Origin: Rhodothermales bacterium
GTDB lineage: Bacteria > Bacteroidota > Rhodothermia > Rhodothermales > VXPQ01
Assembly (NCBI GenBank): GCA_040904565.1
Contig: JBBDTI010000016.1
Location: 132,428 to 176,861, forward strand
Direction: 5' to 3'
DNA: 44,434 nt
A program made the translations under genes and the position numbers. Positions 1-23,540 of the stretch are shown here, piece by piece. How positions within the stretch are numbered: the stretch's first letter is position 1; each line of letters opens with the position of its first letter. The notes under the pieces are model-generated. The model was given only the letters and a program-made list of their open reading frames with translations, did no database searches and was not told where the DNA came from.

Positions 1-185
1 TCGTCACCGGTGGATTCGTCGACGAGCACGATGGCCTCCTCCGGACACTCCACGACGCATTCCTCGAAGTCGCAGCACGTGTCGTCGATCACGTACTTCG
101 GCTCACCTTCCGATATGGCACCGATCGGACACACGTCGAGGCACAATCCGCACGCCGTACATGCGTCCGTAATTTGGTAGGCCAT
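1..185 (-). CDS. Small dicluster-type ferredoxin, 3' end cut by the window edge (absent from the ORF track)
   Basis: Manual translation from ATG at 185: MAYQITDACTACGLCLDVCPIGAISEGEPKYVIDDTCCDFEECVVECPEEAIVLVDESTGD. Canonical CxxCxxCxxxCP plus a second variant motif; GAGGAG RBS at 191-196. Confidence 0.9.
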   Translation of the reverse strand, partial: MAYQITDACTACGLCLDVCPIGAISEGEPKYVIDDTCCDFEECVVECPEEAIVLVDESTGD

Positions 186-276
186 ATGCTCTCCTCGAAC
201 TTCCCGTGTGACGAACGAACGTTGCGTTGGGCGCGCGGATCGCGATCGATCCGTACCAGACACCGGCCCGAAGCGG

Positions 277-1566
277 CTAGGCCAGCCATTCCGGAGCGGC
301 CGGCTCGGCCTCATCGAACGAGGGGAGCCGTTTAAAGGCGCTCGGCCGCTCCATGCCGGCGAGGGCCTCCTGCATAATTTTCTGCGTGATGACGCTGACC
401 TGGTGGCGGTCGGCGTAGGATTCAAGTCCCTTGCGCACCTTCTGTCGGATAAACCGGATCGGGATGCGCTCCAGGCGCGCCTTCGCGTCAGCGGTCCAGG
501 TCACGTCCGACAGTTCCAGCGGTTCGCCCGTGGGCTGGTACGTACAGGCCGGATCCTCCTGCAGATAATCCCCGAAGGATGCCTGGGCACGGCACCGGCA
601 GCCGCCGCAAAGCTCGTTGAACTCGCAGGCCCCGCACCGCCCCTTGAGCCGCGATCGATCGCGCAGGCTGCGTAGCACGGTCGAGGAGGTCCACACCTCC
701 TCGAAAGACTGCTCCCGTACGTTACCGGCGACGACGGTCATATACGGACACGGCGTCACATCGCCGCTAGGCGTGATCCGGCAGTAGTGCGTACCGGCCA
801 TGCAGCCGCCGCTTTCCAGGCCGCCCCGTCCCATCTCGTAGGCGATCTGTTTAAACTGCGGCGCGCACTTCGACCGAACGAGCATGGGGCGGAAATCGTC
901 CTGCCGCGCGGCCAGCTCACGCAGCAGCGCGTCGGTATCCTCGGCGGACAGATCGTTCATCTGCTGCCCGCGGCCGGTCTGGACCAAGAAATACACGTTG
1001 AACGACCAGGCCCCCTTCTCCCGGGCGAAGGCCATCAGCTGGGGAAGCTCATCGCGATTCATATCCATCACCGTCGTCTGCACGAGCACCTCCAGACCGT
1101 GCCTTCGGCAGGTATCCAGGGCACGTACGGAATGCTGCCACGCATTGGGGCCGCCGCGAAATCGGTTGTGCTTCTCCGGATCGATGGAGTCGAGGCTGAT
1201 GCCGACGCCCTTGACCCCGCATTCCACCATCTTCTCCGCCACGCGATCGGTGACGAGCACGCCGTTGGTCCCCATGACCACCCAGATGCCCGACTCGGAG
1301 GCGGTACGGGCGATCTCGTAGATATCCCTTCGCAGGAGCGGCTCACCTCCGGTCAAAATGAGCATCTCCGTGCCCAGCGCCCGCATCTCGTCGATCAGCG
1401 AGAGGCATTCGTCGGTCGTGAGCTCGTTCTCTTCCGCCGTACCCCCCTCCATGTAGCAGTGCGGGCACTTCAGATTGCACTTCCTCGTGAGATTCCACGA
1501 AACGAGGGATGGACGGTAGGTGCGATCGGTCGCATCGGCCTGTACGAATGGCTTCTCGGTACTCAT
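277..1566 (-). CDS. Radical SAM/SPASM protein of the AhbD/NirJ heme-biosynthesis type with a C-terminal PCP_red-like domain
   Basis: SWNLTRKCNLKCPHCY (CxxxCxxC), LTGGEPLLR, KCAPQF, SPASM cysteines GCMAG..VTPCPY..CGACEFNELCGGCRCRA..C; tail WTADAKARLERIPIRFIRQKVRKGLESYA resembles the BchB/ChlB C-terminal domain. Confidence 0.8.
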   Translation of the reverse strand: MSTEKPFVQADATDRTYRPSLVSWNLTRKCNLKCPHCYMEGGTAEENELTTDECLSLIDEMRALGTEMLILTGGEPLLRRDIYEIARTASESGIWVVMGTNGVLVTDRVAEKMVECGVKGVGISLDSIDPEKHNRFRGGPNAWQHSVRALDTCRRHGLEVLVQTTVMDMNRDELPQLMAFAREKGAWSFNVYFLVQTGRGQQMNDLSAEDTDALLRELAARQDDFRPMLVRSKCAPQFKQIAYEMGRGGLESGGCMAGTHYCRITPSGDVTPCPYMTVVAGNVREQSFEEVWTSSTVLRSLRDRSRLKGRCGACEFNELCGGCRCRAQASFGDYLQEDPACTYQPTGEPLELSDVTWTADAKARLERIPIRFIRQKVRKGLESYADRHQVSVITQKIMQEALAGMERPSAFKRLPSFDEAEPAAPEWLA

Positions 1567-1572
1567 AGTCTA

Positions 1573-3084
1573 TCAGGCCGATTCCGGCCGTGTATGCTTC
1601 CACCTTACGATGCCGACCACGCTGAGCAGGACGAGCAGCGTCAGGCCGACCGCACGAAGCATGGGCATCGCCACGGAGGGCTGCTCGACCGGCTCTACGT
1701 AGACGTGGTACCACGACGTGATACCTCGCCGGTTGCCACGCTCTTCATTGAATCCGTCCCATATTGAAAACGCGACGGGTACGAAGGCCCCTTCCGTAAA
1801 AGACTCGGAACGAGGCATCCTGAACATCGCCATCCATTCACCCGCCTCGTAATCGGCGTAGAAGTCCGGCTCCGCATCCGTCGCCGTCAAATCGTCGCTC
1901 CCGCGCCCGACGAACACGATGGCGCTGTCGGTTGCCAGATCCGCGAACCACAGGTCGACGGGATTGCGGGCGTCCCCAAACAGGAAGTACGGTGTCTGGC
2001 CGGCGTCGGCCGAGGGAAACTGGACGGCGACAGCATCCGAATACGGACTCGCCACCGTGTCGCGCACGACCTGCTCGATCCCCGACACGTCCATATCCGG
2101 ACGGTTGCTGCCGTTCGTCTCCGCCGCCATGTCGTGCCAGGACAGGGCCACGGCGAACTCGTCGCCGGTGTAGAAGGCCTTGACCTCGACGGCGTCGACG
2201 CCCGGCATGAACGACCGACCCGGCTCGATCACCTGTCCGACTACCGGGAAGACGCCCCCTCGCTCCTCACCGAAAAGCTCGCGGACCTGCGTCACGTCGA
2301 TGGGTCCGTCGACGGCCCGCGCCGTGATCATGGTCGAGTAGTCGGGCTCGTCTTCCGAAAGCGAATACACGTAGTCGACGAGGGCCCACCGATCTTCGAT
2401 GGGATCGATGGTAAACGACGGCATCGGCGTGCCGTCGAGCCCCGTCGTAAACGTCCGGTAGATGTCCTGTCTGGAAGTTCCTCCGATATACGTCCATCGC
2501 TTCGTCATGTCGGCCGGGCGCAGATGGTTGTCCCACTGATCCTGCAGCGTCGTCGCGGACGGACCGTCACCGCGGCCCTGCTGCCCGTGACAGTCGGCGC
2601 ACCCATTCTCCTCGTAGACGATGCGGCCGCGCTCGATCGTTTCCTCGTTCATGCCGGGCGGACTCGGAATCTCCACCAGGTCCGGCATCCCGTACGGGCC
2701 GGCGAAGTCGTCGTTGAACGTCTTGATGAAGTAAACGAGGTTCCGGATCTGGTTCTCGTTTAGCTGCGGCCACGCAGGCATGCCCGTATAGGGCATCCCC
2801 TCCCGGATCACGCGGATCATGTCGTCGTCGGTCGGCAGCTGGCCGCTTGGCGTCGTGCGGACCTTGTAGATACCGGCCGTAAAGTCACGCGGCATCGGCC
2901 GCATGAACGGTGCCGCCTCGCCGTCGCCCTGGCCCGTATCACCGTGGCACTGTGCACACTTATCCAAATACAGTGCACGCCCGGCTTCGCGCTGCTGCTC
3001 GGTGCCCAGGTCCGGTTCCGCCTGACCGGCGGCCGTCAGTGGGAACAGCGCCGTAAAGAGTATGACAGCTAGTGCTCGCATCAT
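1573..3084 (-). CDS. Exported diheme cytochrome c fused to an ethylbenzene dehydrogenase gamma (EbdC/NxrC, DOMON-like) domain, with C-terminal membrane anchor
   Basis: Signal peptide MMRALAVILFTALFPLTAAG; CAQCH and CADCH; DAVAVQFP, VDLWF, GEW, PVAFSIWDG..ERG motifs; terminal TM helix. Start moved to 3084 (ATGA overlap with the upstream stop). Confidence 0.8.
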   Translation of the reverse strand: MMRALAVILFTALFPLTAAGQAEPDLGTEQQREAGRALYLDKCAQCHGDTGQGDGEAAPFMRPMPRDFTAGIYKVRTTPSGQLPTDDDMIRVIREGMPYTGMPAWPQLNENQIRNLVYFIKTFNDDFAGPYGMPDLVEIPSPPGMNEETIERGRIVYEENGCADCHGQQGRGDGPSATTLQDQWDNHLRPADMTKRWTYIGGTSRQDIYRTFTTGLDGTPMPSFTIDPIEDRWALVDYVYSLSEDEPDYSTMITARAVDGPIDVTQVRELFGEERGGVFPVVGQVIEPGRSFMPGVDAVEVKAFYTGDEFAVALSWHDMAAETNGSNRPDMDVSGIEQVVRDTVASPYSDAVAVQFPSADAGQTPYFLFGDARNPVDLWFADLATDSAIVFVGRGSDDLTATDAEPDFYADYEAGEWMAMFRMPRSESFTEGAFVPVAFSIWDGFNEERGNRRGITSWYHVYVEPVEQPSVAMPMLRAVGLTLLVLLSVVGIVRWKHTRPESA

Positions 3085-3896
3085 TCTACGTGCTCCCTCG
3101 CCCGGGGCCGCTGCCCGGTATAATCGTACAGAAACAGCGTTACGTCCCATATCTCCTCTTCGGTCAGGAAGTCTTCCCAGGCGGGCATGGCGGACTTCCA
3201 CGGCGTCGACTCGGACGGCAGTCCGGGAGCGCCCTTCGCGATGCGCCAGAAGATGTACGTCTCCTGGAGCATGGCGATCGTCGTCGACGACCGGAAGTTG
3301 GCTGGGATCGGATTGAAACCATGCGCGAAGAGACCGTCGCCGCCCATGTCGTCCCCATGGCAGAACACGCAGTTCTCGAAGTACACCCGCCGGCCGTTGG
3401 CCACGTGTCGGGCGAACTGCTCCGGGTCCTCCGTCTCGAGCGATCGGTACGGATTCTCATCCGCCACCAGATCGATCGTTTCACCCTTGAAGTCGATCGA
3501 CGTCGGCGGAGGCGGATGGATGGTCCGACTGCTAACAGGCGGCACCGGCGCAGCCGTCATGTCGAGATATACGCGAAGCGCAACCAGTCCGGGAAGCAGC
3601 AGCAGCACCACAATCAAGGGCACCGTGTAGCGCTTCTCCGTCAGAAAGCGAACGACGCGCTCCCGCACGAACCTGAAATGATCCGAATCGGCCGACATGT
3701 ACGCGAGCAGAGCCAGCGTCAGGATGGCCATGAACATATTGAGGATCGACGACGGCAGCGGCGGGTCGATGCCCCATCGGAAAACGACGTAGGCCCCCGC
3801 CCAGAGGGAGACTATCCAGGCAAGGATGTTCATCCGCGGAACGAACCGCAGCGCAACCAGAACCGCAACGACGGCAAGCAGGACGATGACGTTCAT
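3081..3896 (-). CDS. Membrane-bound monoheme cytochrome c
   Basis: About four hydrophobic N-terminal segments, CVFCH, distal ligand motif SAMPAW; ATGA overlaps with both neighbours. Confidence 0.85.
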   Translation of the reverse strand: MNVIVLLAVVAVLVALRFVPRMNILAWIVSLWAGAYVVFRWGIDPPLPSSILNMFMAILTLALLAYMSADSDHFRFVRERVVRFLTEKRYTVPLIVVLLLLPGLVALRVYLDMTAAPVPPVSSRTIHPPPPTSIDFKGETIDLVADENPYRSLETEDPEQFARHVANGRRVYFENCVFCHGDDMGGDGLFAHGFNPIPANFRSSTTIAMLQETYIFWRIAKGAPGLPSESTPWKSAMPAWEDFLTEEEIWDVTLFLYDYTGQRPRAREHVE

Positions 3897-4714
3897 GATC
3901 CCTCTCCAGTCTGCTGAGCGAGGAACTCGACCAGTGTTCTGAGCTGCGACGTGGATACGTTGTCGTAGAAGCCCGTCGCGTTGAGCTGAGCCGCCATGAG
4001 TCCCTGCTGGAAACCTTCAGCGACCGTGGCGTCGGGCTCCAGTATCGCCTCATAAATCGCATCGCGAGAGAGCCGGCTGCCCACGTCATACAGGCTCGGA
4101 CCTATCATCGGAGTCGGCTCCGTCAGGCTGTGGCACGTGCCGCAGGCGTACGCGTCGTAGAGCTCCTGCCCGCTCATATCCTGGGCAGCGGCAGGCGCGG
4201 CCGGTGCGGCCTCCGAGCCGCCGCCACCCGAATTCTCCTCACTCTGCCACGGCAGCTCGGTGCCCAGCGTAACGGTCGGTTCACCGCCCAGGCTCTGCAG
4301 GTACGCGATGACGGCCAGGATCTGCCGGTCCGACAGGCTGATGGGTGGCTGGGCCGCCGGAGGCATGCCGGGAAGGAAACCTTCCACCACGAATTCATTG
4401 GGCTCGTACAGAGACTGGCCGAGGTATTCCACGTCCGACATCCCCTCCACGCGCTGGCCCGCCGCGGCCCCGATGCCGGCGAGGTCCGGGAATCGTCCGC
4501 CCGTTTCACCGGACATCGTGTGGCAGCTCAGGCACGTGCCCTGTCCGGATACGATCTCCGCACCGACCTCGACGAGTTCCTCCGTCGTCATGTCCTCGCC
4601 GATCTCCGTATCGTCGGGCGGATAGGTTACCGTCTGCGGTACCATCTGACCGACGTAGCTATAAAAGAGCACGACGAGAATGGTGAAGGCGAATATTTTT
4701 ACGGCGTTCATCAT
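3893..4714 (-). CDS. Membrane-anchored diheme cytochrome c
   Basis: N-terminal TM MMNAVKIFAFTILVVLFYSYVG; CLSCH and CGTCH; start moved to 4714 (ATGA overlap, GGAGG upstream). Confidence 0.85.
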   Translation of the reverse strand: MMNAVKIFAFTILVVLFYSYVGQMVPQTVTYPPDDTEIGEDMTTEELVEVGAEIVSGQGTCLSCHTMSGETGGRFPDLAGIGAAAGQRVEGMSDVEYLGQSLYEPNEFVVEGFLPGMPPAAQPPISLSDRQILAVIAYLQSLGGEPTVTLGTELPWQSEENSGGGGSEAAPAAPAAAQDMSGQELYDAYACGTCHSLTEPTPMIGPSLYDVGSRLSRDAIYEAILEPDATVAEGFQQGLMAAQLNATGFYDNVSTSQLRTLVEFLAQQTGEGS

Positions 4715-6468
4715 CCCCCCACCTCCATCTCCTTCCTCCCGGAGAGGCTCGTGATCCAGAACACGATCGCGATGAACGTAAAGAAGATCAGCACGGTCAC
4801 GGATACGACGTTCGCGGCATAACCGAGCGACGGGATGAAGGCGTCGGGAGACGTATCCGCCATCACGCCGTAGACGTGCCAGTGCTGGCGGATGCCCGAT
4901 CGAACGTATCCCATCAGCCCCATCGTCCACGCAAACGTGATGGCGATGAAAAAGAGCGTGTACTGCGCCCGCTTGGGGATCTTACCCCAGGCGATAGGCC
5001 CGAGCACTTTCGCATCCTTGAACATGAAAATGTCGATGATCGTGATGGAGATCATCGCAAAAAGGACGGAGCCGACCTGCGGGATGGAGAGACCGATACG
5101 TACGGAAGCCTCCACGAAATAGCCGTAGACGCCGAGGAAAACCACGATGCCTACGACGATCGCCAGAATACCGAACTGCACCAGCTTGCCCGTACGCGCC
5201 CACGACACCGTTGCTTCCTTGTTCGCGCGCCGGTAGAAGAGAAAGCTCAGATAGGTGGTCAGAATGAGAATGTTTACGGCCGTGTTCTTGGCCGACATCA
5301 CCCCGAGCACGCTGAGGACGGGGTGGTGCGACCCGCCCATGGCCCGTGCTTCCTCCACCGTGGCCACGAGGGAATGCGGCGTCGCCCATACGATAAAGCA
5401 GACCGTGACGGAGGCGAGCAGGTACTTGATGAACTTTCGATATCGCTCCGCCCCGTGAATGCGCTCCATGCTGAGCCACAGGTAGTAGTTGGCCGCCAGA
5501 AAGAGGTTGCCGATCAGCACGGCCTGGATGATGAAGAGCCACGAAAACGTGCCGCCCATGAGCGCGATGCCGAGGCTCTGAGAGAAGGCGTAAATCTCGC
5601 GGCCGAGCCAGTATCCGGCGAAAGGTAGCGGCAGGAGCGCCGCGATGGCGATGAAGTTGCCGATGTAGCCCATCCAGTCGTAATGCGCCCGCTCCTCGTC
5701 GGTCCTGGCGCCGAGGAACTTGTAGGCGCCGTACGCTCCGGCGATCGATCCGCCAAAGCAGATGTTGGCGATCAGGCGGTGGATGTTGATCGGCATCCAC
5801 GTAAAGTTGTTGATCGCGTCCCAGGTCGAGACGAGGGCACCCGTCTCGTCGATGCCGGAAGGGGAGTTCATGAACGTCAGCCAGGCATCCGCGATGAAGA
5901 GGATGACGATGCCGACGAGGTTGAGGCCGAGGCCGACGAGGAGGTGGACGCCCTTGGGCATTTTGCCCCATCCGTAGTAATACGAATAGAGGAACACGGC
6001 CTCGAGGAAGAAGACGCTCACGTACAGCACGAACGTCCAGTCGAAGATCGAGACCAGATACTCCATCAGCCTCGGATAGAGGATGAAGAGCAGAAAGGTC
6101 AGCATCGCACCCAGCGTCGCCGTAAAGGAGAACGACACCGACAGGAGCTTCGTGAAGTCGTAGGCCAGCTGGTCGTATCGATCGTCACCGGATCGGTAGC
6201 CGATGAACTCGATCGTGAGCGCGAACATGGGCACCGCGAGCACGAACGCGGCAAACATGAGGTGAAGCTGGGCGACCACCCAGACGGCAACCCGACTGCC
6301 TACGACCGGAAAGGCTCGGTATTCGACATCGCCTCCCGGCATTTGCGGAACGGCGGCAAGAACTTCAGGCGCTCCGGCGATAAGGAACGCCGCGCCGATA
6401 ACAATCAAGCATGAAGGCACCACGTATGGCGCCTTCCGTTCGGGTAGATTCATAGGCGTACTGCCCAT
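4711..6468 (-). CDS. Cytochrome bd oxidase subunit I-like membrane protein (non-canonical, OR-N/Nitrospira-like type)
   Basis: Polytopic; QLHLMF (E. coli CydA H19-like), FFLEA (E107-like), INIHRL (H186-like), GYVRSGIRQHW (GRQPW-like). Alternative start at 6453. Confidence 0.8.
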   Translation of the reverse strand: MGSTPMNLPERKAPYVVPSCLIVIGAAFLIAGAPEVLAAVPQMPGGDVEYRAFPVVGSRVAVWVVAQLHLMFAAFVLAVPMFALTIEFIGYRSGDDRYDQLAYDFTKLLSVSFSFTATLGAMLTFLLFILYPRLMEYLVSIFDWTFVLYVSVFFLEAVFLYSYYYGWGKMPKGVHLLVGLGLNLVGIVILFIADAWLTFMNSPSGIDETGALVSTWDAINNFTWMPINIHRLIANICFGGSIAGAYGAYKFLGARTDEERAHYDWMGYIGNFIAIAALLPLPFAGYWLGREIYAFSQSLGIALMGGTFSWLFIIQAVLIGNLFLAANYYLWLSMERIHGAERYRKFIKYLLASVTVCFIVWATPHSLVATVEEARAMGGSHHPVLSVLGVMSAKNTAVNILILTTYLSFLFYRRANKEATVSWARTGKLVQFGILAIVVGIVVFLGVYGYFVEASVRIGLSIPQVGSVLFAMISITIIDIFMFKDAKVLGPIAWGKIPKRAQYTLFFIAITFAWTMGLMGYVRSGIRQHWHVYGVMADTSPDAFIPSLGYAANVVSVTVLIFFTFIAIVFWITSLSGRKEMEVGG

Positions 6469-6603
6469 ATTGCGGGTGATGAACGCACGGTCCGTCGGTA
6501 CGAAACCCCCTACCCTTCAGCTCTCGGTCTACAATCAGTCCGCCTTTCGGAGGTCTACGGCGCACTGTGAACTTCCCTAAGAGCCTCGGCAAAATTCTCG
6601 TAA

Positions 6604-6632
6604 AGAATACAGAAAGAGGTGCGAGAGTGCAA
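6604..6632 (-). promoter_or_regulatory. Putative sigma70-type promoter for the bd-like module
   Basis: Minus strand TTGCAC-N17-TATTCT in the spacer upstream of the cydA-like gene. Confidence 0.55.
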
Positions 6633-6664
6633 AGGGCTTGTTGGAATCTCCGAAGACGCCTCCT

Positions 6665-10549: not shown

Positions 10550-10975
10550 CTACTCTTCTCCTCCCTCGATGGACGGATCGGACGCCGTCCCTTCGGTGCT
10601 CTCCGGCACGCCGGCCGCCCGATCGCGAAGCATGGACTCGCGGCGCTCGATGTCGGAAATGGTCTCCGAACCGACGTTGCCAAGATCTCCCCTGAAGGCC
10701 GTGTCGAAGAGCGTAAACGTCAGGAAGATGGCGACGAACGTAACCCCCAGCGCGAAGACGAGCGCGTTGACCTTGTTGTCGTACTTGAGCGCCATGAAAA
10801 AGAGCACGACGAGCCCCGCTTTCGTAGAAGCGATAGCGAGTGCCAGCGGGACGTCCAAGCCTCCCAGGTCCAGCTGCGCCGTCAGGGCCGTAACGATCGT
10901 CAGAACCACAAGCACCGCGAAGACCTTGATCAGCGTCTTCTTCGGAGTTACGTGATGGCCGTGTTGTGCTTTCAT
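10550..10975 (-). CDS. ctaF: caa3 cytochrome c oxidase subunit IV
   Basis: LVVLTIVT, LAIASTKAGLVVLFFMALKY, three TM helices, position after subunit III. Confidence 0.85.
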   Translation of the reverse strand: MKAQHGHHVTPKKTLIKVFAVLVVLTIVTALTAQLDLGGLDVPLALAIASTKAGLVVLFFMALKYDNKVNALVFALGVTFVAIFLTFTLFDTAFRGDLGNVGSETISDIERRESMLRDRAAGVPESTEGTASDPSIEGGEE

Positions 10976-11027
10976 TGCTTAACGATTGCGAGTTGAAGGC
11001 AGCGGAATCGTGAACTACGAGCGCAGC

Positions 11028-11708
11028 CTATATGAGATAGAGCAGCGGAAAAAGGAAAATCCAGATGATGTCGACCAGGTGCCAGTACAGTCCGGTAAGC
11101 TCCACCGGCGTGTAATACTCGCTGCCGAAATGGCCCTTATGAGCACGCCACGCGAGCCAGCTTAAGACGCCCATTCCGATCAGCACGTGGACGCCGTGAA
11201 TCCCCGTCATCACGAAGTAGATGCTGAAGAAGATCGGCACGTACGGCTGGCTCATCTCGGCGTACGAAAACGCAGCGCCCGGAAAGATGCCGAGGTGGAA
11301 TTTGTGCGTGTACTCGAAGTACTTCACCACCATGAATACGCCGGCCAGCAGCACCGTGATGACGAGGTAGCGAACCAGTGTCCGGCGCTTATCCGTCTGC
11401 GCGGCGTGAATGGCCAGTGCGACGGTCAACGAGGATCCAAGCAGCACCAGCGTATTGAGTCCACCGAGCCATGGATTGAGCTCGGTCGCACCGATGGTGA
11501 AGACCTCCGGATACCACACGCGATATACGGTGTACGCCACGAACATCCCACTGAAAAGCAGAATCTCCGTGATCAGAAAGAGCCACATCCCCAGCTTCGC
11601 CGCGTCGAACTGCTGCTCGGACGACACGAAGTAGTGCTTCAGGTGCGGCGGATGATGCTGCGATGCGGACGCATCGTGCGTCGTTGCCGTCGCTGTCGGG
11701 TTGGCCAT
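11028..11708 (-). CDS. ctaE: Cytochrome c oxidase subunit III
   Basis: LGMWLFLITEILLF, NTLVLLGSS, TGIHGVHV, YWHLVDIIW. Confidence 0.95.
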   Translation of the reverse strand: MANPTATATTHDASASQHHPPHLKHYFVSSEQQFDAAKLGMWLFLITEILLFSGMFVAYTVYRVWYPEVFTIGATELNPWLGGLNTLVLLGSSLTVALAIHAAQTDKRRTLVRYLVITVLLAGVFMVVKYFEYTHKFHLGIFPGAAFSYAEMSQPYVPIFFSIYFVMTGIHGVHVLIGMGVLSWLAWRAHKGHFGSEYYTPVELTGLYWHLVDIIWIFLFPLLYLI

Positions 11709-11760
11709 AATCTCTATCGTTCGATATTACGTCTGAACGCGCCCATCAAAAGGGATCGCC

Positions 11761-13488
11761 TTAGTGTGACCGAGCCTCCTCGGAGGGTGCCGTGTCGCCG
11801 ACGGGGCTGCCGTTCCCGACACCGTCGCCGAATACTTCGCCGGCCAGATAGTAGTCGTACGGGCCGTGGGTGACCAGCGGAGTGCGGTGGAAGTTGTGCG
11901 GGGACGGTCGCCGCCCCGTGTGCGTCCACTCGAGCGTCGCCGCGTGCCACGGGTTCGCGCTCGCTTTCTCGCCCCTGAACATGGACACGAGCATATACCC
12001 GAGGACCAGGAACAGGCCCATGCCCAGGACCCAGGATCCCACCGTCGACAGCTGATGAAGAAACGTGTACTCGTCGATGTAATCGTAATACCGGCGGGGC
12101 ATGCCACGCGTGCCGAGCACGAGCTGCGAGAAGAACGTCAGGTTGAAGCCGACGAAAATGAGTCCGGCCGCGATCTGAGCCAGGCGCTCGTTGTACATCC
12201 GGCCCGTGATCTTCGGCCACCAGTAATGCAGGCCGCCCAGCAGGGCGATCACCGTACCACCCATCATGACGTAGTGGAAGTGCCCGACCACGTAGTACGT
12301 GTCGTGCAGGTGGATGTCGACGGCCAGCACGCCCACCATGATGCCGGTAACGCCGCCGATCGTAAAGAGCACGAGAAACGACAGCGCGTAGAGCATGGGG
12401 GTCTTGAATGACACCGACCCCTTGTACATCGTTGCGATCCAGTTGAAGATCTTGATGCCGGACGGAATACCGATCAGGTAGGTGATGAGCGAGAAGATGA
12501 TCGATGAGATGGCGGACTGGCCCGAGACGAACATGTGGTGGCCCCAAACGAGGAACCCGAGCATGGCGATCGCAACGGAAGACAGCGCGATGGCCGTGTA
12601 CCCGAAGATGCGCTGCCGCGAAAACGTGCCGATAAGCTCGGAGATGATCCCGAATCCCGGCAGGATCATGATATAGACGGCCGGATGCGAGTAGAACCAG
12701 AAGAAGTGCTGAAAGAGGATCGGATCGCCGCCCAGCGCCGGATCGAAGATACCGATGCCCATCAGCCGTTCCAGGAAGAGGAGCAGCACGGTGATGCCGA
12801 GCACCGGCGTCGCGAGCACCTGCACGATGCTCGTGGCGTAGATGCTCCAGACGAACAGGGGCAGGCGGTTCCAGGTCAATCCGGGCGCCCGCATCTTGTG
12901 GATGGTGACGATAAAGTTCAGCCCCGTAAAGATCGACGCGAACCCGGCGATGAACACGGCCATCGTGAGAAACAGCACCGCGGGTCCCGTGCGGGCCGAA
13001 TACGGCGTATAGAACGTCCACCCCGTGTCGACGCTTCCGACGACCATCGCGACGACGATCAGGATGACGCCGATCAGATAGAAGTAATAGCTCGTCAGGT
13101 TCAACCTGGGAAACGCCACGTCTTTCGCCCCGAGCTGAATGGGCAGCAAGAAGTTGCCCAGAAACCCGGGAATGGCGGGGATGATAAATCCGAACACCAT
13201 GATGATCCCGTGCAGCGAGAACATCTGGTTATAGGTGTCGGCCGTCATGATCGTCTCGCCGGGCATAAAGAGTTCGGCGCGCACGAGCAGCGCGAACACC
13301 CCGGCCACTAGAAAGGCGAGCGCGGTGGTGATCCCGTACATGATGCCGATCCGCTTGTGATCGACGGACAGGAGCCACGACTTGATACTCGTATCGTGCG
13401 TGATGTAATCGCCGTGATCACCGTGATCACTGTGCCCTTCGTCTCCTGCAGGCGCGGCTTTCGGCTTCTGGTGCTTTGCTTCCGCCAT
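11761..13488 (-). CDS. ctaD: Cytochrome c oxidase subunit I, type A2 heme-copper oxidase
   Basis: [23 protein letters not shown] (A2 YS motif), [24 protein letters not shown]. Confidence 0.97.
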
Positions 13489-13545
13489 GACCCTATCTAT
13501 CTATATCGTTGTGGACTTCCGGCGCCGCAGCGCCGCCGTCGTTCG

Positions 13546-14478
13546 TCACTGAAGCTGCTCGATATACGCGATCAGCCCGGACAGCTCCCGCTCGCTCAGA
13601 TTCCCGTACGCCGCCGGCATGACGTTCTGATACCCCTCTACGATGGTTGCCCCCGGCTCGAGAATCGACTCGCGCAGAAAGTCTTCATCGACCTCTACCG
13701 TCGAGCCGTCCGCCAGCGTCTCCGTCTCTCCATACAGGCCCTGCAGCGTCGGTCCGATACCGGCCGTCCCGTCGATGCTGTGACAGGCCGCGCAACCCCG
13801 CTGCTCGTAGAGCTGCTGTCCCAGTTCCGGCAGCGGCATGTCTTCATCGGTCCCGGCCGATGCCAGCCACTCCTCAAAATCACCCTGTGAATGCGTCACG
13901 AGACTCGAGAGCATCTCCGAATGTCCCTGTCCGCAGTACTCCGTGCAGAAGACGTGAAACGTGTCCGTTCGCGTCGCCTCGAACCAGACGGAGGAGTACC
14001 GGTCCGGGAGAACGTCCTGCTTTACCCGAAACTCCGGCACGAAAAAGCTGTGGAGGACGTCCACGCTGCTCATGTTCAGGCGAACCGGGCGATCGACGGG
14101 GACGTGGAGCTCGCCGACCGTAACCGTTCCGTTCGGATATTCAAACTCCCAGCTCCACATGGAACCGCGCACCTGGATTTCGTAGGCGTCGGGCGGGGAC
14201 ACGCTCTGGTCGATGAATAGTTTGAATCCCCAGTTGAAGATGATCAGCACGAGAATCGTAGGCAGAATAATCCACGAGATCTCGACGATCGTGTTCGGCT
14301 CCACGGGTTGGGGCACGTGTACCTCGTCCTGCCGCCGGTACCGTACGGCGAGATAGATCGTGGCCGCCACGACGCCGACGAACAGAATGATGCTCGCCCA
14401 GGTCACGAAGTAAAACAGGCTGTCGATCTCCGGCGACATCGTCGACGCGCTTTCCGGCAGCCAGAATGTATCGTTCAT
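13546..14478 (-). CDS. ctaC: Cytochrome c oxidase subunit II with C-terminal cytochrome c (caa3 type)
   Basis: DVLHSF, CuA motif CTEYCGQGHSEM, heme motif CAACH with distal NVMP. Confidence 0.96.
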   Translation of the reverse strand: MNDTFWLPESASTMSPEIDSLFYFVTWASIILFVGVVAATIYLAVRYRRQDEVHVPQPVEPNTIVEISWIILPTILVLIIFNWGFKLFIDQSVSPPDAYEIQVRGSMWSWEFEYPNGTVTVGELHVPVDRPVRLNMSSVDVLHSFFVPEFRVKQDVLPDRYSSVWFEATRTDTFHVFCTEYCGQGHSEMLSSLVTHSQGDFEEWLASAGTDEDMPLPELGQQLYEQRGCAACHSIDGTAGIGPTLQGLYGETETLADGSTVEVDEDFLRESILEPGATIVEGYQNVMPAAYGNLSERELSGLIAYIEQLQ

Positions 14479-16298: not shown

Positions 16299-17543
16299 TC
16301 ACGTGTTCTCGAAGCGGAGCGAGTCCTCCAGGTAGGGGGAACGGTGAGGCACGAGATGGTGGCGCGTCAGGCGGTACATGAACGCAGCCACAAAAAGTCC
16401 GAAGAGACCCAGCCAGCTGGCCACGTCCAGCATGTGGATTGCCGCCGCATCCGGATGCAGGACGGGCATGGCGAGCCAGTGCAGGTCGAACCACTGCATC
16501 ACGAGCAGCCAGACGCAGAATAAGCCAAGCAGCGGCTTCGAGCGCTTCACGCCCCGCGGAAGCAGGACGATGAACGGTATGATGAAATGACAGATCAAAA
16601 GGATGGCACTGTGCACCTCCCAGCCGTGCTCGAGCCTGTGTCGAAACCACAACGTCTCCTCGGGAATGTTGCCGTACCAGATCAGCATGTACTGGCTGAA
16701 CGCGATATAGGCCCAGAAGACGACGAATCCGAAGGTCATCTTGCCGAGATCCTGATAATGTTCTTTCGTCACGACGCGGCGCAGGCTCCCGCGCCCCTGC
16801 AGCGTCATCGACACCAGGGCGAGGAAGGCGTGGATCGACATGAAGGCGCCGGCGAAGATGTAGACCCCGAAGATGGTCGAAAACCAGTGGGGATCGAGCG
16901 ACATGAGCAGGTCGTAGCTGGCGAAGGCCGTCGTCACGGCCGTTAATGCCAGACCCCACGCACTCACCTTCCGCTGGCGGGCCGGGATGGACGGATCGCC
17001 CGTGGCATCCTCCTCCAGCGAGAGCCGGTACAGCTTGTAGCCTACCAGGCTCCACGCCAGAAAGTAGATGGCGAGGCGGGCGAGGAAAAATGGAACGTTC
17101 AGATAGGCCGTCTTGCCGGCCAGGATGGGGTCATTCGCCACCACATCCGCATGCGTCCAGTGATACAGATCGTGCATGCCGAACAAAATCGGGATGCCCA
17201 GCACGGCGAGCAGCGGGAAGCTCCACAGAAGCGCCTCGGCCATGCGCCGTACGACGACGCTCCACCGTGCCTTCGTCAGATGCTGGATCAGCACGAAGAA
17301 CAGTGCACCCAGCGCGATCGTCAGGCAGAACGCCCACCCCACGAGGTACGAGAAGTAAAACTGGTGCGGGTCCGTCGCCCAGCCGACGAGGCTTACGACG
17401 ATGCCGATGGCACCGACGAGTAATGGGATACCCCATATACGCCAGTCGCCGCGGAAGCTGTAGTCGTCACCCGCATCACCTACCGTGGGCTCGAACGGAT
17501 CCAGCAGGCTTCGTGCTATGCTGCTCTTCTTCAAAGTCGCCAT
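16299..17543 (-). CDS. actF: Alternative complex III subunit ActF
   Basis: About ten TM helices; HLTKARW, MSLDPHWFSTIFG, YIAFSQYMLIWYGNIPEET. Confidence 0.92.
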   Translation of the reverse strand: MATLKKSSIARSLLDPFEPTVGDAGDDYSFRGDWRIWGIPLLVGAIGIVVSLVGWATDPHQFYFSYLVGWAFCLTIALGALFFVLIQHLTKARWSVVVRRMAEALLWSFPLLAVLGIPILFGMHDLYHWTHADVVANDPILAGKTAYLNVPFFLARLAIYFLAWSLVGYKLYRLSLEEDATGDPSIPARQRKVSAWGLALTAVTTAFASYDLLMSLDPHWFSTIFGVYIFAGAFMSIHAFLALVSMTLQGRGSLRRVVTKEHYQDLGKMTFGFVVFWAYIAFSQYMLIWYGNIPEETLWFRHRLEHGWEVHSAILLICHFIIPFIVLLPRGVKRSKPLLGLFCVWLLVMQWFDLHWLAMPVLHPDAAAIHMLDVASWLGLFGLFVAAFMYRLTRHHLVPHRSPYLEDSLRFENT

Positions 17544-17610
17544 CTATCTAGTCGTTATCTCCTGCCGCCTGTCCCGTGGAATCCGTCATACGGTTCGTCT
17601 TCGCTGTGTG

Positions 17611-18243
17611 CTATTCCCGCCCGGACGATCCCGCACCCTGCTGAATCTCAGCACGTATGCCGGCCGGCACGTCATCGGGCGTCGCATACTGGCTGCGCTG
17701 CAGCGCGCGGACGTATGCGACGATGGCCCATCGATCCGCCGTCGGGACCTGCTTTCCGTACGCAGGCATCGTTCGCACGCCGTTGGCAATGACGTCGTAG
17801 ACGTAGCCGTCCTCGACCTCGCGGAGCCGCTCACCATGGAACGTTGGAACCGGAGTGAGCCCGTAACCTCCCGTAGCGACGATCCCCTGCCCGTCGCCCG
17901 CCGACCCGTGGCACGGCGTACAGAAAATCTCGTAGCGCTCCTGCCCCCGCTCCAGCAAGGCCATCGTCGTCGGCACGGGGAGGTCTTCGACGTAGCCCCC
18001 GTCCGTGCCGCGGCCCTCGTAGAACCCGACATCCTCGCGCAGCATACCGCGTGCGACGGTCCCTGCCACCGGCATCCGCATAGAGCGATTGTCGGCGAAG
18101 AACGGATTGGATTCCTGCGGATCGAAGCGCTCCTGAAAATCCATATTCCGGTTCAGGTGGATGGGCTCCCGATCGCTGAGCGTGCCCCGGCAGGAGGCCA
18201 GCACGAAGGCCGCGAAAAGTATGAGCGTGGTTGCTTTATTCAT
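17611..18243 (-). CDS. actE: Alternative complex III monoheme cytochrome c lipoprotein ActE
   Basis: Lipoprotein signal MNKATTLILFAAFVLASC, CTPCH, MPAYG, DRWAIVAYVRALQ; start moved to 18243 (ATGA overlap with actD). Confidence 0.92.
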   Translation of the reverse strand: MNKATTLILFAAFVLASCRGTLSDREPIHLNRNMDFQERFDPQESNPFFADNRSMRMPVAGTVARGMLREDVGFYEGRGTDGGYVEDLPVPTTMALLERGQERYEIFCTPCHGSAGDGQGIVATGGYGLTPVPTFHGERLREVEDGYVYDVIANGVRTMPAYGKQVPTADRWAIVAYVRALQRSQYATPDDVPAGIRAEIQQGAGSSGRE

Positions 18244-18824
18244 TCCGTTTCCGTGAGCAATTCGATATTGTATCCGCCGAGATCTTTCAACAGCTTCTCC
18301 GTCGCGTCGCGGCCGAAACGCCTGTCGCTGGCCGCAATGTGCAGGAAGAAGGCGTCGTCCGTCGCACGGGCAAAATTCTTGGAGTAAAACAGCGGGTTGT
18401 GCGGACGGGGCAACCCGTTGAGCGCCAGCATGCCCACTACGGCACCGAAGGCGGCAAAGAGCACGGTCAGCTCGAACATGATCGGGATCGAGGGCTCGAT
18501 GGCGAAAAACGGCTTGCCGCTGATGTTGATGGGGTAGTCTGCCGCGCTGGTCCACCACTGAAGCCAGTAGGCCAGCGCCAGCCCCGTGATGCCGCCGCCG
18601 AGTGTAAAAAATCCGACCTTCGAGTTTCCGAGCCCCATCGCGCGATCCATCCCGTGAATGGGAAATGGGCTGTGCGTATCGAAATGCGTGTATCCCGCCT
18701 CGCGGACGCCTTCCGCGGCGTGCAGCAGCGCACCCGGATCGGAGAACTCCGCCAGCAAGCCGTACGCCGGCTCGCTCTCGTAGATACCCATCGAGGCCTT
18801 TATTTCCGTAAGAAGTTTCTTCAT
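18240..18824 (-). CDS. actD: Alternative complex III subunit ActD (DUF3341)
   Basis: GLLAEF, HSPFPIHG, YPINISGKP, PIMFELTVL, FFLHI. Confidence 0.92.
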   Translation of the reverse strand: MKKLLTEIKASMGIYESEPAYGLLAEFSDPGALLHAAEGVREAGYTHFDTHSPFPIHGMDRAMGLGNSKVGFFTLGGGITGLALAYWLQWWTSAADYPINISGKPFFAIEPSIPIMFELTVLFAAFGAVVGMLALNGLPRPHNPLFYSKNFARATDDAFFLHIAASDRRFGRDATEKLLKDLGGYNIELLTETE

Positions 18825-18859
18825 AGACAGGTTGGATCTCAGGTTGTCCAGCGGTCCGA

Positions 18860-20296
<1,437 letters not shown>

Positions 20297-20313
20297 GTTA
20301 ATTCAGTTTTGGG

Positions 20314-20329
20314 GTTGGCAGTTGGCAGT
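20314..20329 (+). repeat. Short heptamer tandem repeat (GTTGGCA)2GT in the actB-actC spacer
   Basis: Read directly from the sequence. Confidence 0.7.
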
Positions 20330-20347
20330 GAACGAATGGCGGATGAC

Positions 20348-23455: not shown

Positions 23456-23519
23456 TTTCAGTCGCTCGTTGCAAGATGCTGGTCGCCGGCACTGCAAGTG
23501 CTCGTACCGCGCAGCCAGT

Positions 23520-23540
23520 CTATCTAACTATCTAACTATC
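23520..23540 (+). repeat. Octamer tandem repeat (CTATCTAA)2CTATC in the actA-actB spacer
   Basis: Read directly from the sequence. Confidence 0.75.

What the first reader, a model, noticed from the sequence alone, without database searches (positions are those of the whole stretch)
1..6632. Self-contained cydB-less bd-like oxidoreductase module with three dedicated cytochromes c, a radical SAM enzyme and a ferredoxin
Seen: a promoter-like element, then cydA-like, diheme cyt c, monoheme cyt c and diheme cyt c-EbdC domain genes joined by three consecutive ATGA overlaps (4711-4714, 3893-3896, 3081-3084), followed closely by radical SAM and ferredoxin genes; no cydB. Known: bd-like proteins of the OR-N type with cytochrome c and NxrC-like partners occur in Nitrospira, Nitrospina and anammox nxr regions, with unresolved function. 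Inference: a stoichiometric membrane complex exchanging electrons with cytochrome c rather than quinol, here in a probable heterotroph with no nxrAB in view. It could be an undescribed terminal reductase (O2 or NO) or electron-transfer hub.
Basis: partly seen in the sequence, partly recalled or inferred. Interest (0 to 1): 0.85.

Follow-up and report, generated by a model that had tools for sequence, protein, structure and literature searches.

The report
Cytochrome-c-fed bd-like oxidase operon
A sediment Rhodothermales bacterium carries a widespread but never-characterised respiratory enzyme: a relative of cytochrome bd oxidase that has swapped its quinol site for three cytochrome c partners, and comes with a conserved set of helper genes that may tailor its haem.

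Summary
The genes, the three ATGA overlaps and the lack of cydB (none found in a 94.9%-complete genome) were all confirmed. The promoter-like element was not.

The core is a 14-helix CydA-like protein without a Q-loop, followed by a dihaem c, a 3-TM monohaem c and a dihaem c fused to an EbdC/NxrC-like domain. Gene order and homology match the kustd1712-1709 block of anammox and nitrite-oxidiser nxr clusters, that is, the OR-N bd-like family of Murali et al. 2021. It is a new member of a known but biochemically uncharacterised kind.

It is not rare and not self-contained:
- At least 574 genome loci across many phyla carry it, and the four-gene order was kept in every locus with room.
- The operon runs past the window start into unk134, Usp-PCP_red-rubredoxin, Mrp and ZnR-PCP_red genes.
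- It sits between ACIII-caa3 genes and a second haem-copper oxidase.
- narGHJI lies on another contig.

New here:
- The accessory set (AhbD/NirJ-like radical SAM enzyme plus PCP_red proteins) is conserved with the module.
- Natural CydA-like/dihaem-c fusions exist.
- A complex model docks the monohaem cytochrome onto the helices that replace the Q-loop.

Most likely function: cytochrome c:O2 (less likely NO) reductase. Interest is moderate.

The parts
4711..6468 (-). CydA-like membrane subunit (P0001, 585 aa): about 13-14 TM helices, N-terminal half homologous to cytochrome bd subunit I, Q-loop replaced by extra helices, no CxxCH
   Evidence: Pfam PF01654 on residues 58-294 only. PDB phmmer hits are CydA chains over the N-terminal half only. 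Foldseek top 10 are all CydA. Alignment to canonical CydA. Tree.
3893..4714 (-). Membrane-anchored dihaem cytochrome c (P0002, 273 aa), homologue of Kustd1711 of the anammox nxr cluster
   Evidence: Pfam Cytochrom_C x2. CxxCH at 61 and 191, N-terminal TM helix. PDB 7ZS0 E 1.1e-29 over residues 4-239. ATGA overlap with the gene before it.
3081..3896 (-). Three-TM monohaem cytochrome c (P0003, 271 aa), predicted to dock on the CydA-like subunit
   Evidence: Pfam Cytochrome_CBB3. 3 hydrophobic segments and CxxCH at 176. Complex model score 0.74 against best control 0.00. ATGA overlap.
1573..3084 (-). Signal peptide + dihaem cytochrome c (Kustc0457-like) + EbdC/NxrC-like beta-sandwich (putative haem b domain) + C-terminal TM anchor (P0004, 503 aa)
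   Evidence: Pfam Cytochrom_C x2 and EB_dh. TIGR03477, below its cut-off. PDB 6H5L_B E 1.9e-51. AF2 pLDDT 79.8. Foldseek 6H5L_B, 2IVF_C, 7B04_C. ATGA overlap.
277..1566 (-). Radical SAM/SPASM enzyme of the AhbC/AhbD/NirJ (tetrapyrrole side-chain) clade with a C-terminal PCP_red domain (P0005, 429 aa)
   Evidence: Pfam Radical_SAM, SPASM, PCP_red. Best NCBIfam hits NirJ2 355.6 bits and AhbD 306 bits, both below the 500-bit cut-offs. CxxxCxxC at residues 30-37. Single copy in the genome.
1..185 (-). First 61 codons of a 2x[4Fe-4S]-type ferredoxin. The gene continues across a 100-N scaffold gap just before the window start.
   Evidence: Pfam Fer4 families and NCBIfam FdxA_fam, 57.7 bits against a cut-off of 65. 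Gap flanks overlap by 20 nt.
6469..6664 (-). 196-nt intergenic region upstream of the CydA-like gene. Likely holds the operon's promoter, but none was verified.
   Evidence: Sequence. Sigma-70 scan found 0 sites.
10550..14478 (-). Context, not part of the module: haem-copper cytochrome c oxidase genes CoxB, CoxA, COX3, COX4
   Evidence: NCBIfam CtaD_CoxA 687 bits, CoxB 181.7 bits. Pfam COX3, COX4_pro.
16299..24253 (-). Context, not part of the module: alternative complex III-like genes (multihaem ActA-like, 1049-aa molybdopterin-like/FeS ActB-like, NrfD-like ActC-like and others)
   Evidence: NCBIfam QrcA/QrcB/QrcC/DsrP-type hits. The naming as ACIII rests on my knowledge of Rhodothermus ACIII.

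Best explanation
This is an operon for a cytochrome-c-dependent, CydB-less 'bd-like' haem-protein complex of the OR-N family (14-helix N1/N2 type).

Proposed architecture:
- The CydA-like subunit keeps the four-helix haem pocket of cytochrome bd. H69 corresponds to His19, E156 to Glu107, H175 to His126 and H230 to His186, the haem b558 ligand.
- The quinol-binding Q-loop is gone and is replaced by extra transmembrane helices and a periplasmic loop.
- The 3-TM monohaem cytochrome c docks on that replacement.
- A membrane-anchored Kustd1711-like dihaem cytochrome c is the second partner.
- A third subunit combines a dihaem cytochrome c, an EbdC/NxrC-like domain and a TM anchor. Together these extend a periplasmic haem wire.

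Proposed electron flow: high-potential periplasmic donors (ACIII, encoded just upstream, and soluble or anchored cytochromes c) pass electrons along this wire to haem b558, then to the His-ligated high-spin haem. There a small oxidant is reduced, most likely O2 at low tension and less likely NO.

Proposed role of the cytoplasmic genes that follow: cofactor maturation for this complex. These are an AhbD/NirJ-like radical SAM enzyme with a PCP_red domain, a ferredoxin, a 134-aa protein, Usp-PCP_red x3-rubredoxin, an Mrp Fe-S carrier and ZnR-PCP_red.

Status of each step:
- Shown: the homologies, the synteny and the loss of the Q-loop and CydB.
- Supported by models only: the docking.
- Inferred: the direction of electron flow, the substrate and the role of the accessory genes.
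For: Domains and haem motifs.

Not a canonical CydA:
- Pfam covers only profile positions 2-239 of 418 at 87.6-89.6 bits. Canonical CydA in the same phylum covers about 1-418 at 445-573 bits.
- A quick ML tree splits 10 canonical CydA from the 41 family rows with SH-aLRT 100.
- In the alignment the Q-loop region is occupied by extra helices. His19, Glu107, His126, His186 and the W...RQxW motif are kept.
- No cydB and no second cydA-like gene were found in the genome.

Partners:
- P0002 matches Kustd1711, E 1.1e-29. That protein has two haems of about +350 mV and lies in the nxr cluster (PMC11791136; passages read).
- The P0004 model matches Kustc0457 (E 6.6e-19, TMt 0.79), EbdC (E 6e-13, TMt 0.76) and Kuenenia NxrC (E 9.7e-11).

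Complex formation:
- The gene order is kept in 78 of 78, 74 of 74 and 71 of 71 loci with room.
- P0009 (889 aa) is a CydA-like protein fused to a P0002-like protein, 34% identity over 281 aa, E 7e-45. P0010 and P0019 also end in a cytochrome c domain.
- A c2-c1 fusion occurs in L057.
- Complex prediction for P0001 + P0003 scored 0.74, best of 3 controls 0.00. That mark was reached by 58 of 80 solved complexes and 2 of 110 mismatched pairs, and the counts hold only roughly because my own alignments were used. The runs agree in at least 73% of contacts and the partner's pLDDT is at least 78. The interface on P0001 is residues 297-386, the Q-loop replacement.

Respiratory context:
- ACIII-like and CoxBA-COX3-COX4 genes lie upstream on the same strand.
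- A second COX1 lies downstream at C16:123724-125151.
- 46 of 80 related loci have Cox or Act homologues within the flank fetched upstream of the CydA-like gene, up to 8 kb.

Accessory set:
- Within 8 kb downstream: Usp-PCP_red in 56 of 63 loci, the radical SAM gene in 39 of 63, Mrp in 28 of 63. These are undercounts because the loci end at +8 kb.
- The whole set is in the same order in G036.
- All 5 PCP_red domains of the genome are in this cluster.
- In one 151-genome phylum sample, the Usp-PCP_red protein was found in exactly the 2 genomes that have the 14-helix bd-like gene.

Literature:
- OR-N enzymes are proposed to be cytochrome c-oxidising O2 reductases (Murali et al., bioRxiv 10.1101/2021.01.16.426971, and PMC10839748; passages read).
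- Some cultured aerobic Nitrospirales have no other oxygen reductase (PMC12342949; passages read).
Against: No biochemical data exist for any OR-N enzyme. The papers read say so.

Active-site doubts:
- In my alignment two residues important in E. coli bd are not kept. Glu99 is Tyr149, with a one-residue deletion, and the haem b595 ligand Glu445 aligns with Leu518.
- The Met393 position aligns with Val465, so the sixth ligand of b558 is unassigned.
- A three-haem O2-reducing site is therefore not demonstrated. The enzyme may bind only two haems.

Physiology:
- The homologous block occurs in strictly anaerobic anammox bacteria, where O2 reduction is unlikely (PMC3578206, PMC6423088).
- Radical SAM enzymes and 4Fe-4S ferredoxins are O2-sensitive. 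That fits an anoxic or microoxic role at least as well as an aerobic one.

Model quality:
- The AF2 model of P0001 is only moderate (pLDDT 62.7), and Foldseek TM-scores to CydA are 0.33-0.40.
- The complex score is the model's own confidence, not a measurement.
- Fusion proteins come from metagenomic gene calls and could include frameshift artefacts.

Subfamily: assignment to OR-N1 or N2 could not be made with the authors' HMMs, because the supplements are closed.
Confidence: 0.55

Rival explanations
1. Electron-transfer hub between the cytochrome c pool and the quinone pool. The CydA-like subunit would have evolved a new quinone site. The complex would then work like an alternative complex III, forwards or in reverse, and would not be a terminal reductase.
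For: Lucker et al. 2013 proposed this for the bd-like protein of nxr clusters (PMC3578206; passage read). In Acidobacteriota loci, ActA-, ActB- and ActE-like genes lie directly upstream of the CydA-like gene with no ActC-like quinol subunit between them, as if CydA-like took ActC's place. The module occurs in anaerobic anammox bacteria.
Against: All known quinol-binding features of CydA (the Q-loop) are missing (PMC3578206). This genome already has a complete ACIII just upstream. The conserved His19-type high-spin haem pocket and the Glu107 equivalent point to ligand chemistry rather than simple transfer.
Confidence: 0.2
2. Nitric oxide reductase, or an NO-detoxifying oxidase, fed by cytochrome c.
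For: The genome has respiratory narGHJI, so N-oxide stress is plausible. The partner cytochromes are homologues of anammox proteins that work with N-oxide enzymes: Kustd1711 in the nxr cluster, and Kustc0457 as the partner of the 'reducing HAO-like protein' in the PDB title of 6H5L. Canonical bd oxidases are implicated in NO tolerance (PMC10839748; passage read).
Against: No cd1 nitrite reductase (PF02239) was found in the genome. Other denitrification genes were not searched. The neighbours are oxygen-respiration genes. There is no precedent for NO reduction by a bd-type site.
Confidence: 0.12
3. Membrane anchor and electron outlet of a periplasmic type II DMSO-reductase-family enzyme (NXR- or Nar-like), as in nitrite oxidisers. 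The catalytic subunits would be encoded elsewhere.
For: The EB_dh/NxrC-like domain normally partners such enzymes. The homologous block lies in nxr clusters.
Against: The only EB_dh domain in the genome is P0004. The molybdoenzymes found are a canonical NarGHJI with its own NarI, a NasC-like enzyme, and two further Molybdopterin-family places on C60 and C66 that were not identified. None of the 80 related loci was selected for nxr linkage, yet 46 show Cox or Act neighbours. nxrAB itself was not searched for in those loci.
Confidence: 0.05

Closest known systems
kustd1712-kustd1709 block of the Kuenenia stuttgartiensis nxr gene cluster, with its counterparts in Nitrospira and Nitrospina
   Same: Same four gene types in the same order: cydA-like, dihaem c, monohaem c, dihaem c (table in PMC6423088). 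P0002 is a sequence homologue of Kustd1711. Lucker et al. describe the bd-like protein there as having 14 helices, no Q-loop and conserved haem b ligands. A usp gene (kustd1706) also lies in that cluster.
   Different: Here there is no nxrAB, no cupredoxins and no TorD-like chaperone nearby. The neighbours are ACIII and haem-copper oxidases. Whether kustd1709 carries the EB_dh domain is not known to me from a call.
OR-N family of the cytochrome bd superfamily (Murali, Gennis, Hemp 2021), 14-helix subfamilies OR-N1/OR-N2
   Same: No quinol site, no haem c motif in CydA, about 14 helices, an operon with alternative electron donors, the His19 equivalent kept, and a one-residue deletion between the two proton-channel glutamate positions with a nearby conserved Tyr. 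[quoted passage not shown]
   Different: In Nitrospirales and Nitrospinota an N1+N2 CydAA' pair is assumed. Here there is only one cydA-like gene in the genome. The subfamily could not be assigned with the authors' HMMs. The accessory radical SAM and PCP_red genes are not mentioned in the main text: 0 hits for 'radical' and 'ferredoxin'. The supplements could not be seen.
Canonical cytochrome bd quinol oxidase CydAB(X)
   Same: Homologous N-terminal haem-binding helices. Nearest fold in the PDB.
   Different: No Q-loop and no CydB. The Glu99 and Glu445 equivalents are not kept. About five extra helices. Electron entry through c-type cytochromes.
AhbD / AhbC / NirJ radical SAM enzymes of haem and haem d1 biosynthesis
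   Same: P0005 has the CxxxCxxC motif and a SPASM domain, and its best family hits are NirJ2 and AhbD (E 3e-106 and 3.8e-91).
   Different: Scores are below every equivalog cut-off. It has an extra C-terminal PCP_red domain. The genome has HemF, and neither ChdC nor a cd1 nitrite reductase was found. It is therefore unlikely to be the housekeeping haem b synthase or a haem d1 enzyme.

Membership tests
Cytochrome bd subunit I (canonical quinol-oxidising CydA, qOR) | Full-length match to PF01654, including the Q-loop and C-terminal helices | tested here: not met
   Only profile positions 2-239 of 418 match, at 87.6 bits. Canonical CydA of the same phylum matches about 1-418 at 445-573 bits. The Q-loop region is replaced by extra helices.
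Cytochrome bd subunit I (canonical quinol-oxidising CydA, qOR) | CydB partner encoded in the genome | tested here: not met
   PF02322 had no match in the 94.9%-complete genome. The control rang in 9 of 14 named genomes.
Cytochrome bd subunit I (canonical quinol-oxidising CydA, qOR) | Haem ligands His19, His186, Met393 and Glu445 (E. coli numbering, recalled) | tested here: inconclusive
   H69 and H230 align with His19 and His186. The Met393 position aligns with V465 and the Glu445 position with L518. The alignment in the C-terminal half is uncertain.
OR-N family (Murali et al. 2021) | CydA homologue lacking the quinol-binding site and lacking haem c motifs | tested here: met
   No Q-loop. 0 CxxCH motifs in P0001.
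OR-N family (Murali et al. 2021) | 14 transmembrane helices (OR-N1/N2) | tested here: met
   The AF2 model shows about 14 long helices. Crude hydropathy gives about 12-14 segments. No dedicated TM predictor was available.
OR-N family (Murali et al. 2021) | Placement in the OR-N clade by the authors' tree or HMM classifier | not testable with these tools
   The HMMs and alignments are in supplements, which are closed. No named Nitrospira or Kuenenia CydA-like sequence could be fetched. My tree shows only separation from canonical CydA.
nxr-cluster bd-like/cytochrome c block (kustd1709-1712 type) | Gene order cydA-like, dihaem c (Kustd1711-like), monohaem c, dihaem c | tested here: met
   Kuenenia table.
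nxr-cluster bd-like/cytochrome c block (kustd1709-1712 type) | Linkage to nxrAB | tested here: not met
   No molybdopterin gene lies in the window or in the 19 kb before it. The Molybdopterin-family matches of the genome are on C92, C60 and C66.
EB_dh / type II DMSO reductase gamma subunit (EbdC, NxrC) | Beta-sandwich fold of EbdC/NxrC | tested here: met
   Foldseek 2IVF_C E 6e-13, TMt 0.76. 7B04_C E 9.7e-11. Pfam EB_dh 37.6 bits against a cut-off of 33.3.
EB_dh / type II DMSO reductase gamma subunit (EbdC, NxrC) | Haem b axial ligands (Met/Lys in EbdC, recalled) and partnership with alpha and beta subunits | not tested
   Ligand positions were not mapped. TIGR03477 scores 58.5 bits against a cut-off of 169.85. 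No alpha/beta partner lies in the locus.
AhbD/NirJ-type tetrapyrrole radical SAM enzymes | Score above the equivalog cut-off of an AhbD, AhbC or NirJ model | tested here: not met
   NirJ2 355.6 against 500. AhbD 306 against 500. NirJ 218.4 against 515. It is a related but distinct subfamily.
AhbD/NirJ-type tetrapyrrole radical SAM enzymes | CxxxCxxC radical SAM motif and SPASM auxiliary-cluster domain | tested here: met
   C30-x3-C34-x2-C37 in the translation. Pfam Radical_SAM 115 bits and SPASM 44.6 bits.

The most novel reading that the evidence does not exclude
The conserved cytoplasmic gene set that travels with this bd-like module across phyla is an oxygen-independent pathway. It would tailor or deliver a special haem for the active site of OR-N enzymes, for example a chlorin or another side-chain-modified haem. 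The set comprises an AhbD/NirJ-like radical SAM enzyme with a PCP_red domain, a ferredoxin, Usp-PCP_red x3-rubredoxin, a dedicated Mrp Fe-S carrier and ZnR-PCP_red. This would be a new branch of haem biosynthesis. It would also explain how these enzymes are equipped in microoxic and anoxic organisms.
Probability: 0.25. Interest if true: 0.85.

Novelty: new member of a known kind. Interest (0 to 1): 0.55.

Why it matters
OR-N bd-like enzymes are thought to be the main terminal oxidases of nitrite oxidisers such as Nitrospira and Nitrospina. They also sit in the nxr clusters of anammox bacteria. None has been purified or assayed, largely because those organisms are hard to grow and to manipulate genetically.

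This analysis shows three things:
- The same four-subunit module, with high sequence conservation (63-87% identity for the CydA-like subunit across several phyla), is common outside the nitrifiers. There it lies beside ordinary aerobic respiratory genes.
- It occurs in at least one named cultured species: NCBI names a 78%-identical protein from Rhodocaloribacter litoris.
- That opens a direct route to testing what the enzyme reduces and how it is wired.

The tight linkage to an AhbD/NirJ-like radical SAM enzyme and PCP_red proteins is a concrete lead on the enzyme's cofactor. I found it in no paper.

Tried and rejected
Canonical CydA with a distant cydB: rejected.

Housekeeping AhbD or haem d1 NirJ as the role of the radical SAM enzyme: judged unlikely. 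HemF is present, neither ChdC nor cd1 NirS was found, and the gene is single copy and module-linked.

The 801-aa membrane protein upstream (6665-9070) as part of the module: rejected. It has no family hit, and among the 80 loci a homologue appears only in L003.

Long ORFs that seemed to fuse cydA-like and c2 in L023 and L040: these are out-of-frame artefacts of my ORF extension in high-GC DNA and were not counted as fusions.

Expression: the look-up of sequencing runs listed 6 DNA runs (5 sediment, 1 soil; 3 studies) and no RNA holder.

The first AF2 model of P0001 used a shallow alignment (23 rows, 65-83% identical) and reached only pLDDT 62.7. I did not refold it with the deeper alignment A2, because the second job went to P0004.

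Literature searches that found nothing linking bd-like oxidases to radical SAM, NirJ, AhbD or PCP_red:
- terms PCP_red, PF08369, radical SAM, haem. 0 occurrences of the first two in the 15 papers listed, of 516 holding at least 2 terms.
- of 59 papers, the 20 listed include none that holds both a bd-like term and a radical SAM term.
- One search found no paper on this module in Acidobacteria or Rhodothermus.
- Only the held library was searched. Supplements of Murali et al. 2021, which describe operon contexts, could not be seen and may already show some of these neighbours.

(Atlas) and 103 are leads on co-occurrence, not tests. Kin are not independent.

Full report
**What is there.** All genes lie on the minus strand, and six are packed closely.
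- CydA-like protein P0001: 585 aa, 4711-6468.
- Dihaem cytochrome c P0002: 273 aa, 3893-4714.
- Monohaem cytochrome c P0003: 271 aa, 3081-3896, with three hydrophobic segments.
- P0004: 503 aa, 1573-3084. It has a signal-like N-terminus, two CxxCH motifs, an EB_dh domain and a C-terminal hydrophobic helix.
- Radical SAM/SPASM enzyme P0005: 429 aa, 277-1566, with a C-terminal PCP_red domain.
- A ferredoxin that starts at 185.

P0004 and P0005 are 6 nt apart.

**The window edge cuts the module.**
- The window is G000:C16:132428-176861. It begins right after a 100-N scaffold gap whose two flanks repeat the same 20 nt. The ferredoxin gene is therefore continuous, about 82 aa.
- On the same strand it is followed by five more genes:
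  - a 134-aa protein with no family;
  - a 637-aa protein with two Usp domains, three PCP_red domains and a rubredoxin-like knuckle (P0008);
  - an Mrp/NUBPL-type P-loop ATPase;
  - a 182-aa zinc-ribbon + PCP_red protein that overlaps Mrp by ATGA;
  - a small CopD-like membrane protein.
- All five PCP_red domains of the genome are in this cluster.

**Surroundings.**
- Upstream in the window, same strand, going away from the operon:
  - an 801-aa membrane protein with no family;
  - a PCMT methyltransferase;
  - COX4, COX3, CoxA, CoxB;
  - an alternative-complex-III-like set.
- Downstream on the contig there is a second COX1 gene.
- The module therefore sits inside a respiratory gene island.
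- The genome has no cydB and no second cydA-like gene (completeness 94.9%).
- It does have a canonical narGHJI with a cytochrome c gene on another contig, plus a NasC-like gene.
- P0004 holds the only EB_dh domain in the genome.

**What the CydA-like protein is.**
- Pfam, PDB sequence search and Foldseek all name cytochrome bd subunit I as the nearest relative, but only for the N-terminal half.
- I aligned it with ten canonical CydA proteins from the same phylum. H69, E156, H175 and H230 fall on E. coli His19, Glu107, His126 and His186 (E. coli numbers recalled). The late W...RQxW motif is kept.
- The Glu99 position is Tyr149 with a one-residue deletion. The Glu445 position is Leu518, next to a six-residue insertion.
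- The Q-loop region is replaced by extra hydrophobic helices.
- A quick ML tree puts the ten canonical proteins on one side of a long branch (SH-aLRT 100) and all 41 family rows on the other.
- The AF2 model (pLDDT 62.7) shows about 14 long helices.
- This is the description that Lucker et al. 2013 gave for the 'bd-like oxidase' of nxr clusters, and that Murali et al. 2021 gave for OR-N1/N2 (passages read).
- The subfamily could not be assigned, because the authors' HMMs are in closed supplements.

**The partners.**
- P0002 is a homologue of Kustd1711 (PDB 7ZS0, E 1.1e-29, including the N-terminal helix). Kustd1711 is a dihaem cytochrome of the anammox nxr cluster with haem potentials near +350 mV (PMC11791136; passages read).
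- The P0004 model (pLDDT 79.8) has two parts:
  - The N-terminal part matches the dihaem protein Kustc0457 (6H5L_B; sequence E 1.9e-51; Foldseek E 6.6e-19).
  - The C-terminal beta-sandwich matches EbdC (2IVF_C, E 6e-13) and Kuenenia NxrC (7B04_C, E 9.7e-11).
- The transcript table of Hu et al. 2019 lists kustd1712 (cydA-like), kustd1711 (dihaem), kustd1710 (monohaem) and kustd1709 (dihaem) in a row, and a uspA-like kustd1706 in the same cluster (PMC6423088). That is the same order as here.

**How common it is.**
The best 80 loci are 63-87% identical. They come from MAGs labelled Rhodothermales, Calditrichia, Fibrobacterota, Acidobacteriota (Thermoanaerobaculia, Vicinamibacteria, Holophagales), Myxococcota, Opitutales and others.
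- The protein search scored 7530 clusters with E <= 0.001 among 8000 candidates. One is a protein that NCBI names from Rhodocaloribacter litoris, 78% identical.
- Among 1.84 billion 50%-identity representatives, 1442 match at E <= 0.001 and 224 at E <= 1e-30.
- In a sample of 151 genomes of the window's own phylum, the 14-helix type was seen in 2 (G000 and G036, a same-order genome). Canonical CydA was seen in most of the 69 genomes with a hit. Within the phylum the module is therefore patchy.

**Synteny.**
- Among the 80 loci, the second, third and fourth genes follow on the same strand in 78 of 78, 74 of 74 and 71 of 71 loci with enough downstream sequence.
- Within 8 kb downstream (63 loci with room): Usp-PCP_red in 56, the radical SAM gene in 39, unk134 in 29, Mrp in 28, ZnR-PCP_red in 28, ferredoxin in 26. 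The loci stop at +8 kb, so the later genes are undercounted.
- Two gene orders occur. One is the Rhodothermales order seen in this window. The other, in Acidobacteriota, runs core, Usp-PCP_red, Mrp, ZnR-PCP_red, radical SAM gene.
- G036 has the whole set in the window's order, followed by CoxA/COX3.
- In the same 151-genome sample, P0008 matched (E <= 1e-10) only G000 and G036.
- The Atlas lists Usp+PCP_red architectures mostly from Nitrospinota, Nitrospirota, Acidobacteriota and Pseudomonadota (a lead only).
- Upstream, 46 of 80 loci have Cox or Act homologues within the fetched flank (up to 8 kb). In Acidobacteriota loci, ActA-, ActB- and ActE-like genes directly precede the CydA-like gene with no ActC-like gene between them.

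**Evidence for a physical complex.**
- The representative P0009 (889 aa) is a CydA-like protein continued by a full P0002-like protein (34% identity over 281 aa, E 7e-45). P0010 and P0019 also end in a cytochrome c domain.
- L057 encodes a c2-c1 fusion.
- Complex prediction on P0001 + P0003, with my own alignments A1 and A3, gave a score of 0.74 with the best of three controls at 0.00.
  - That mark was reached by 58 of 80 solved complexes and 2 of 110 mismatched pairs, and these counts hold only roughly for my alignments.
  - The runs agree in at least 73% of contacts, and the partner's pLDDT is at least 78.
  - I know of no solved complex of this kind.
- The confident contacts join P0001 residues 297-386, exactly the helices and loop that replace the Q-loop. 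On P0003 they involve the second TM helix (43-74), the linker (118-132) and the cytochrome domain (185-230).
- This fits a simple idea: the cytochrome takes the place of quinol next to haem b558. It is a model result, not a measurement.

**The accessory genes.**
- P0005 has the CxxxCxxC motif and a SPASM domain. Its best family hits are NirJ2 (355.6 bits) and AhbD (306 bits), both below the 500-bit cut-offs. It is a distinct member of the clade whose known members cut or convert side chains of iron tetrapyrroles.
- The genome has HemF, and neither ChdC nor cd1 nitrite reductase was found. A housekeeping haem b role or a haem d1 role is therefore unlikely.
- The cluster's Mrp is a second copy, 35% identical to a paralogue on C27.
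- From this I infer, but have not shown, that the set matures a cofactor for the complex.
- I found no paper linking bd-like oxidases with such genes. The supplements of Murali et al. were not visible.

**Function.**
- For O2 reduction:
  - the retained high-spin haem pocket;
  - the neighbourhood of ACIII and haem-copper oxidases;
  - literature statements that OR-N enzymes are the presumed terminal oxidases of nitrite oxidisers, some of which have no other oxidase.
- Against O2 reduction, or at least leaving it open:
  - the missing Glu99 and Glu445 equivalents;
  - the occurrence of the block in anammox bacteria;
  - the O2-sensitive nature of the accessory enzymes;
  - the complete lack of biochemistry.
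- My odds: cytochrome c:O2 reductase about 0.55, cytochrome c/quinone hub about 0.2, NO reductase about 0.12, partner of a periplasmic molybdoenzyme about 0.05.

**Verdict.**
- It is a real, conserved operon and a new member of a known but uncharacterised enzyme family. It is neither rare nor self-contained.
- Its value is twofold. It shows the module outside the nitrifiers, in a lineage with a named cultured carrier. It also shows the linkage to a haem-type radical SAM system. Together these make an open question testable.

Noticed in passing
G000:C16:132328-132427, just before window position 1: A 100-N scaffold gap whose two flanks repeat the same 20 nt. It looks like an unmerged contig overlap inside the ferredoxin gene. 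C16 has eight such 100-N gaps.
   Followed up: yes
window 6665-9070 (-): An 801-aa protein with hydrophobic segments at both ends and no Pfam or NCBIfam hit. It lies between the PCMT gene and the bd-like operon. Among the 80 related loci a homologue was seen only in L003.
   Followed up: partly
L045, L050, L057, L071, L076, L082, about 3400-7800 in each: In Acidobacteriota loci a second ActA-like, ActB-like and ActE-like gene set sits directly upstream of the CydA-like gene with no ActC-like quinol subunit. In L071 and L082 an ActC/ActDE/ActF-like set lies just before it. This could be a hybrid ACIII/bd-like complex.
   Followed up: partly
L027, L028, L045, L050, L051, L060, L081 (c2 gene); L057:9864-11360: The Kustd1711-like cytochrome is shortened to about 160-210 aa in Fibrobacterota and Acidobacteriota loci; tblastn there covers only residues 1-~155 of P0002, which hold the first of its two CxxCH motifs. 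In L057 it is fused in frame to the 3-TM monohaem cytochrome.
   Followed up: partly
P0009 (889 aa), P0010 (784 aa), P0019 (807 aa): Natural fusions of the CydA-like protein with a C-terminal cytochrome c. Several other long representatives (P0012, P0016, P0020-P0022, P0027, P0036) have insertions of unknown nature, one with a PA14 domain.
   Followed up: partly
G118, G130, G094: Three genomes of the phylum sample have 478-480-aa ORFs that match only PF01654 positions 4-192. They may be another, shorter Q-loop-less CydA type.
   Followed up: no
G000:C92 (L083:1733-9546): A respiratory narGHJI cluster preceded by a 337-aa CxxCH protein. An ORF next to it carries an Rrf2-type regulator domain.
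   Followed up: partly
window 9100-10035 (-): A protein-L-isoaspartate O-methyltransferase with an N-terminal extension of about 100 residues, wedged between the caa3 genes and the bd-like operon. It is also present in L003.
   Followed up: no
G036 region (L096/L097), between 21300 and 23043 of the joined stretch: In the same-order genome a 1.7-kb stretch separates the fourth core gene from the radical SAM gene. In the window they are 6 nt apart. Its content was not examined.
   Followed up: no
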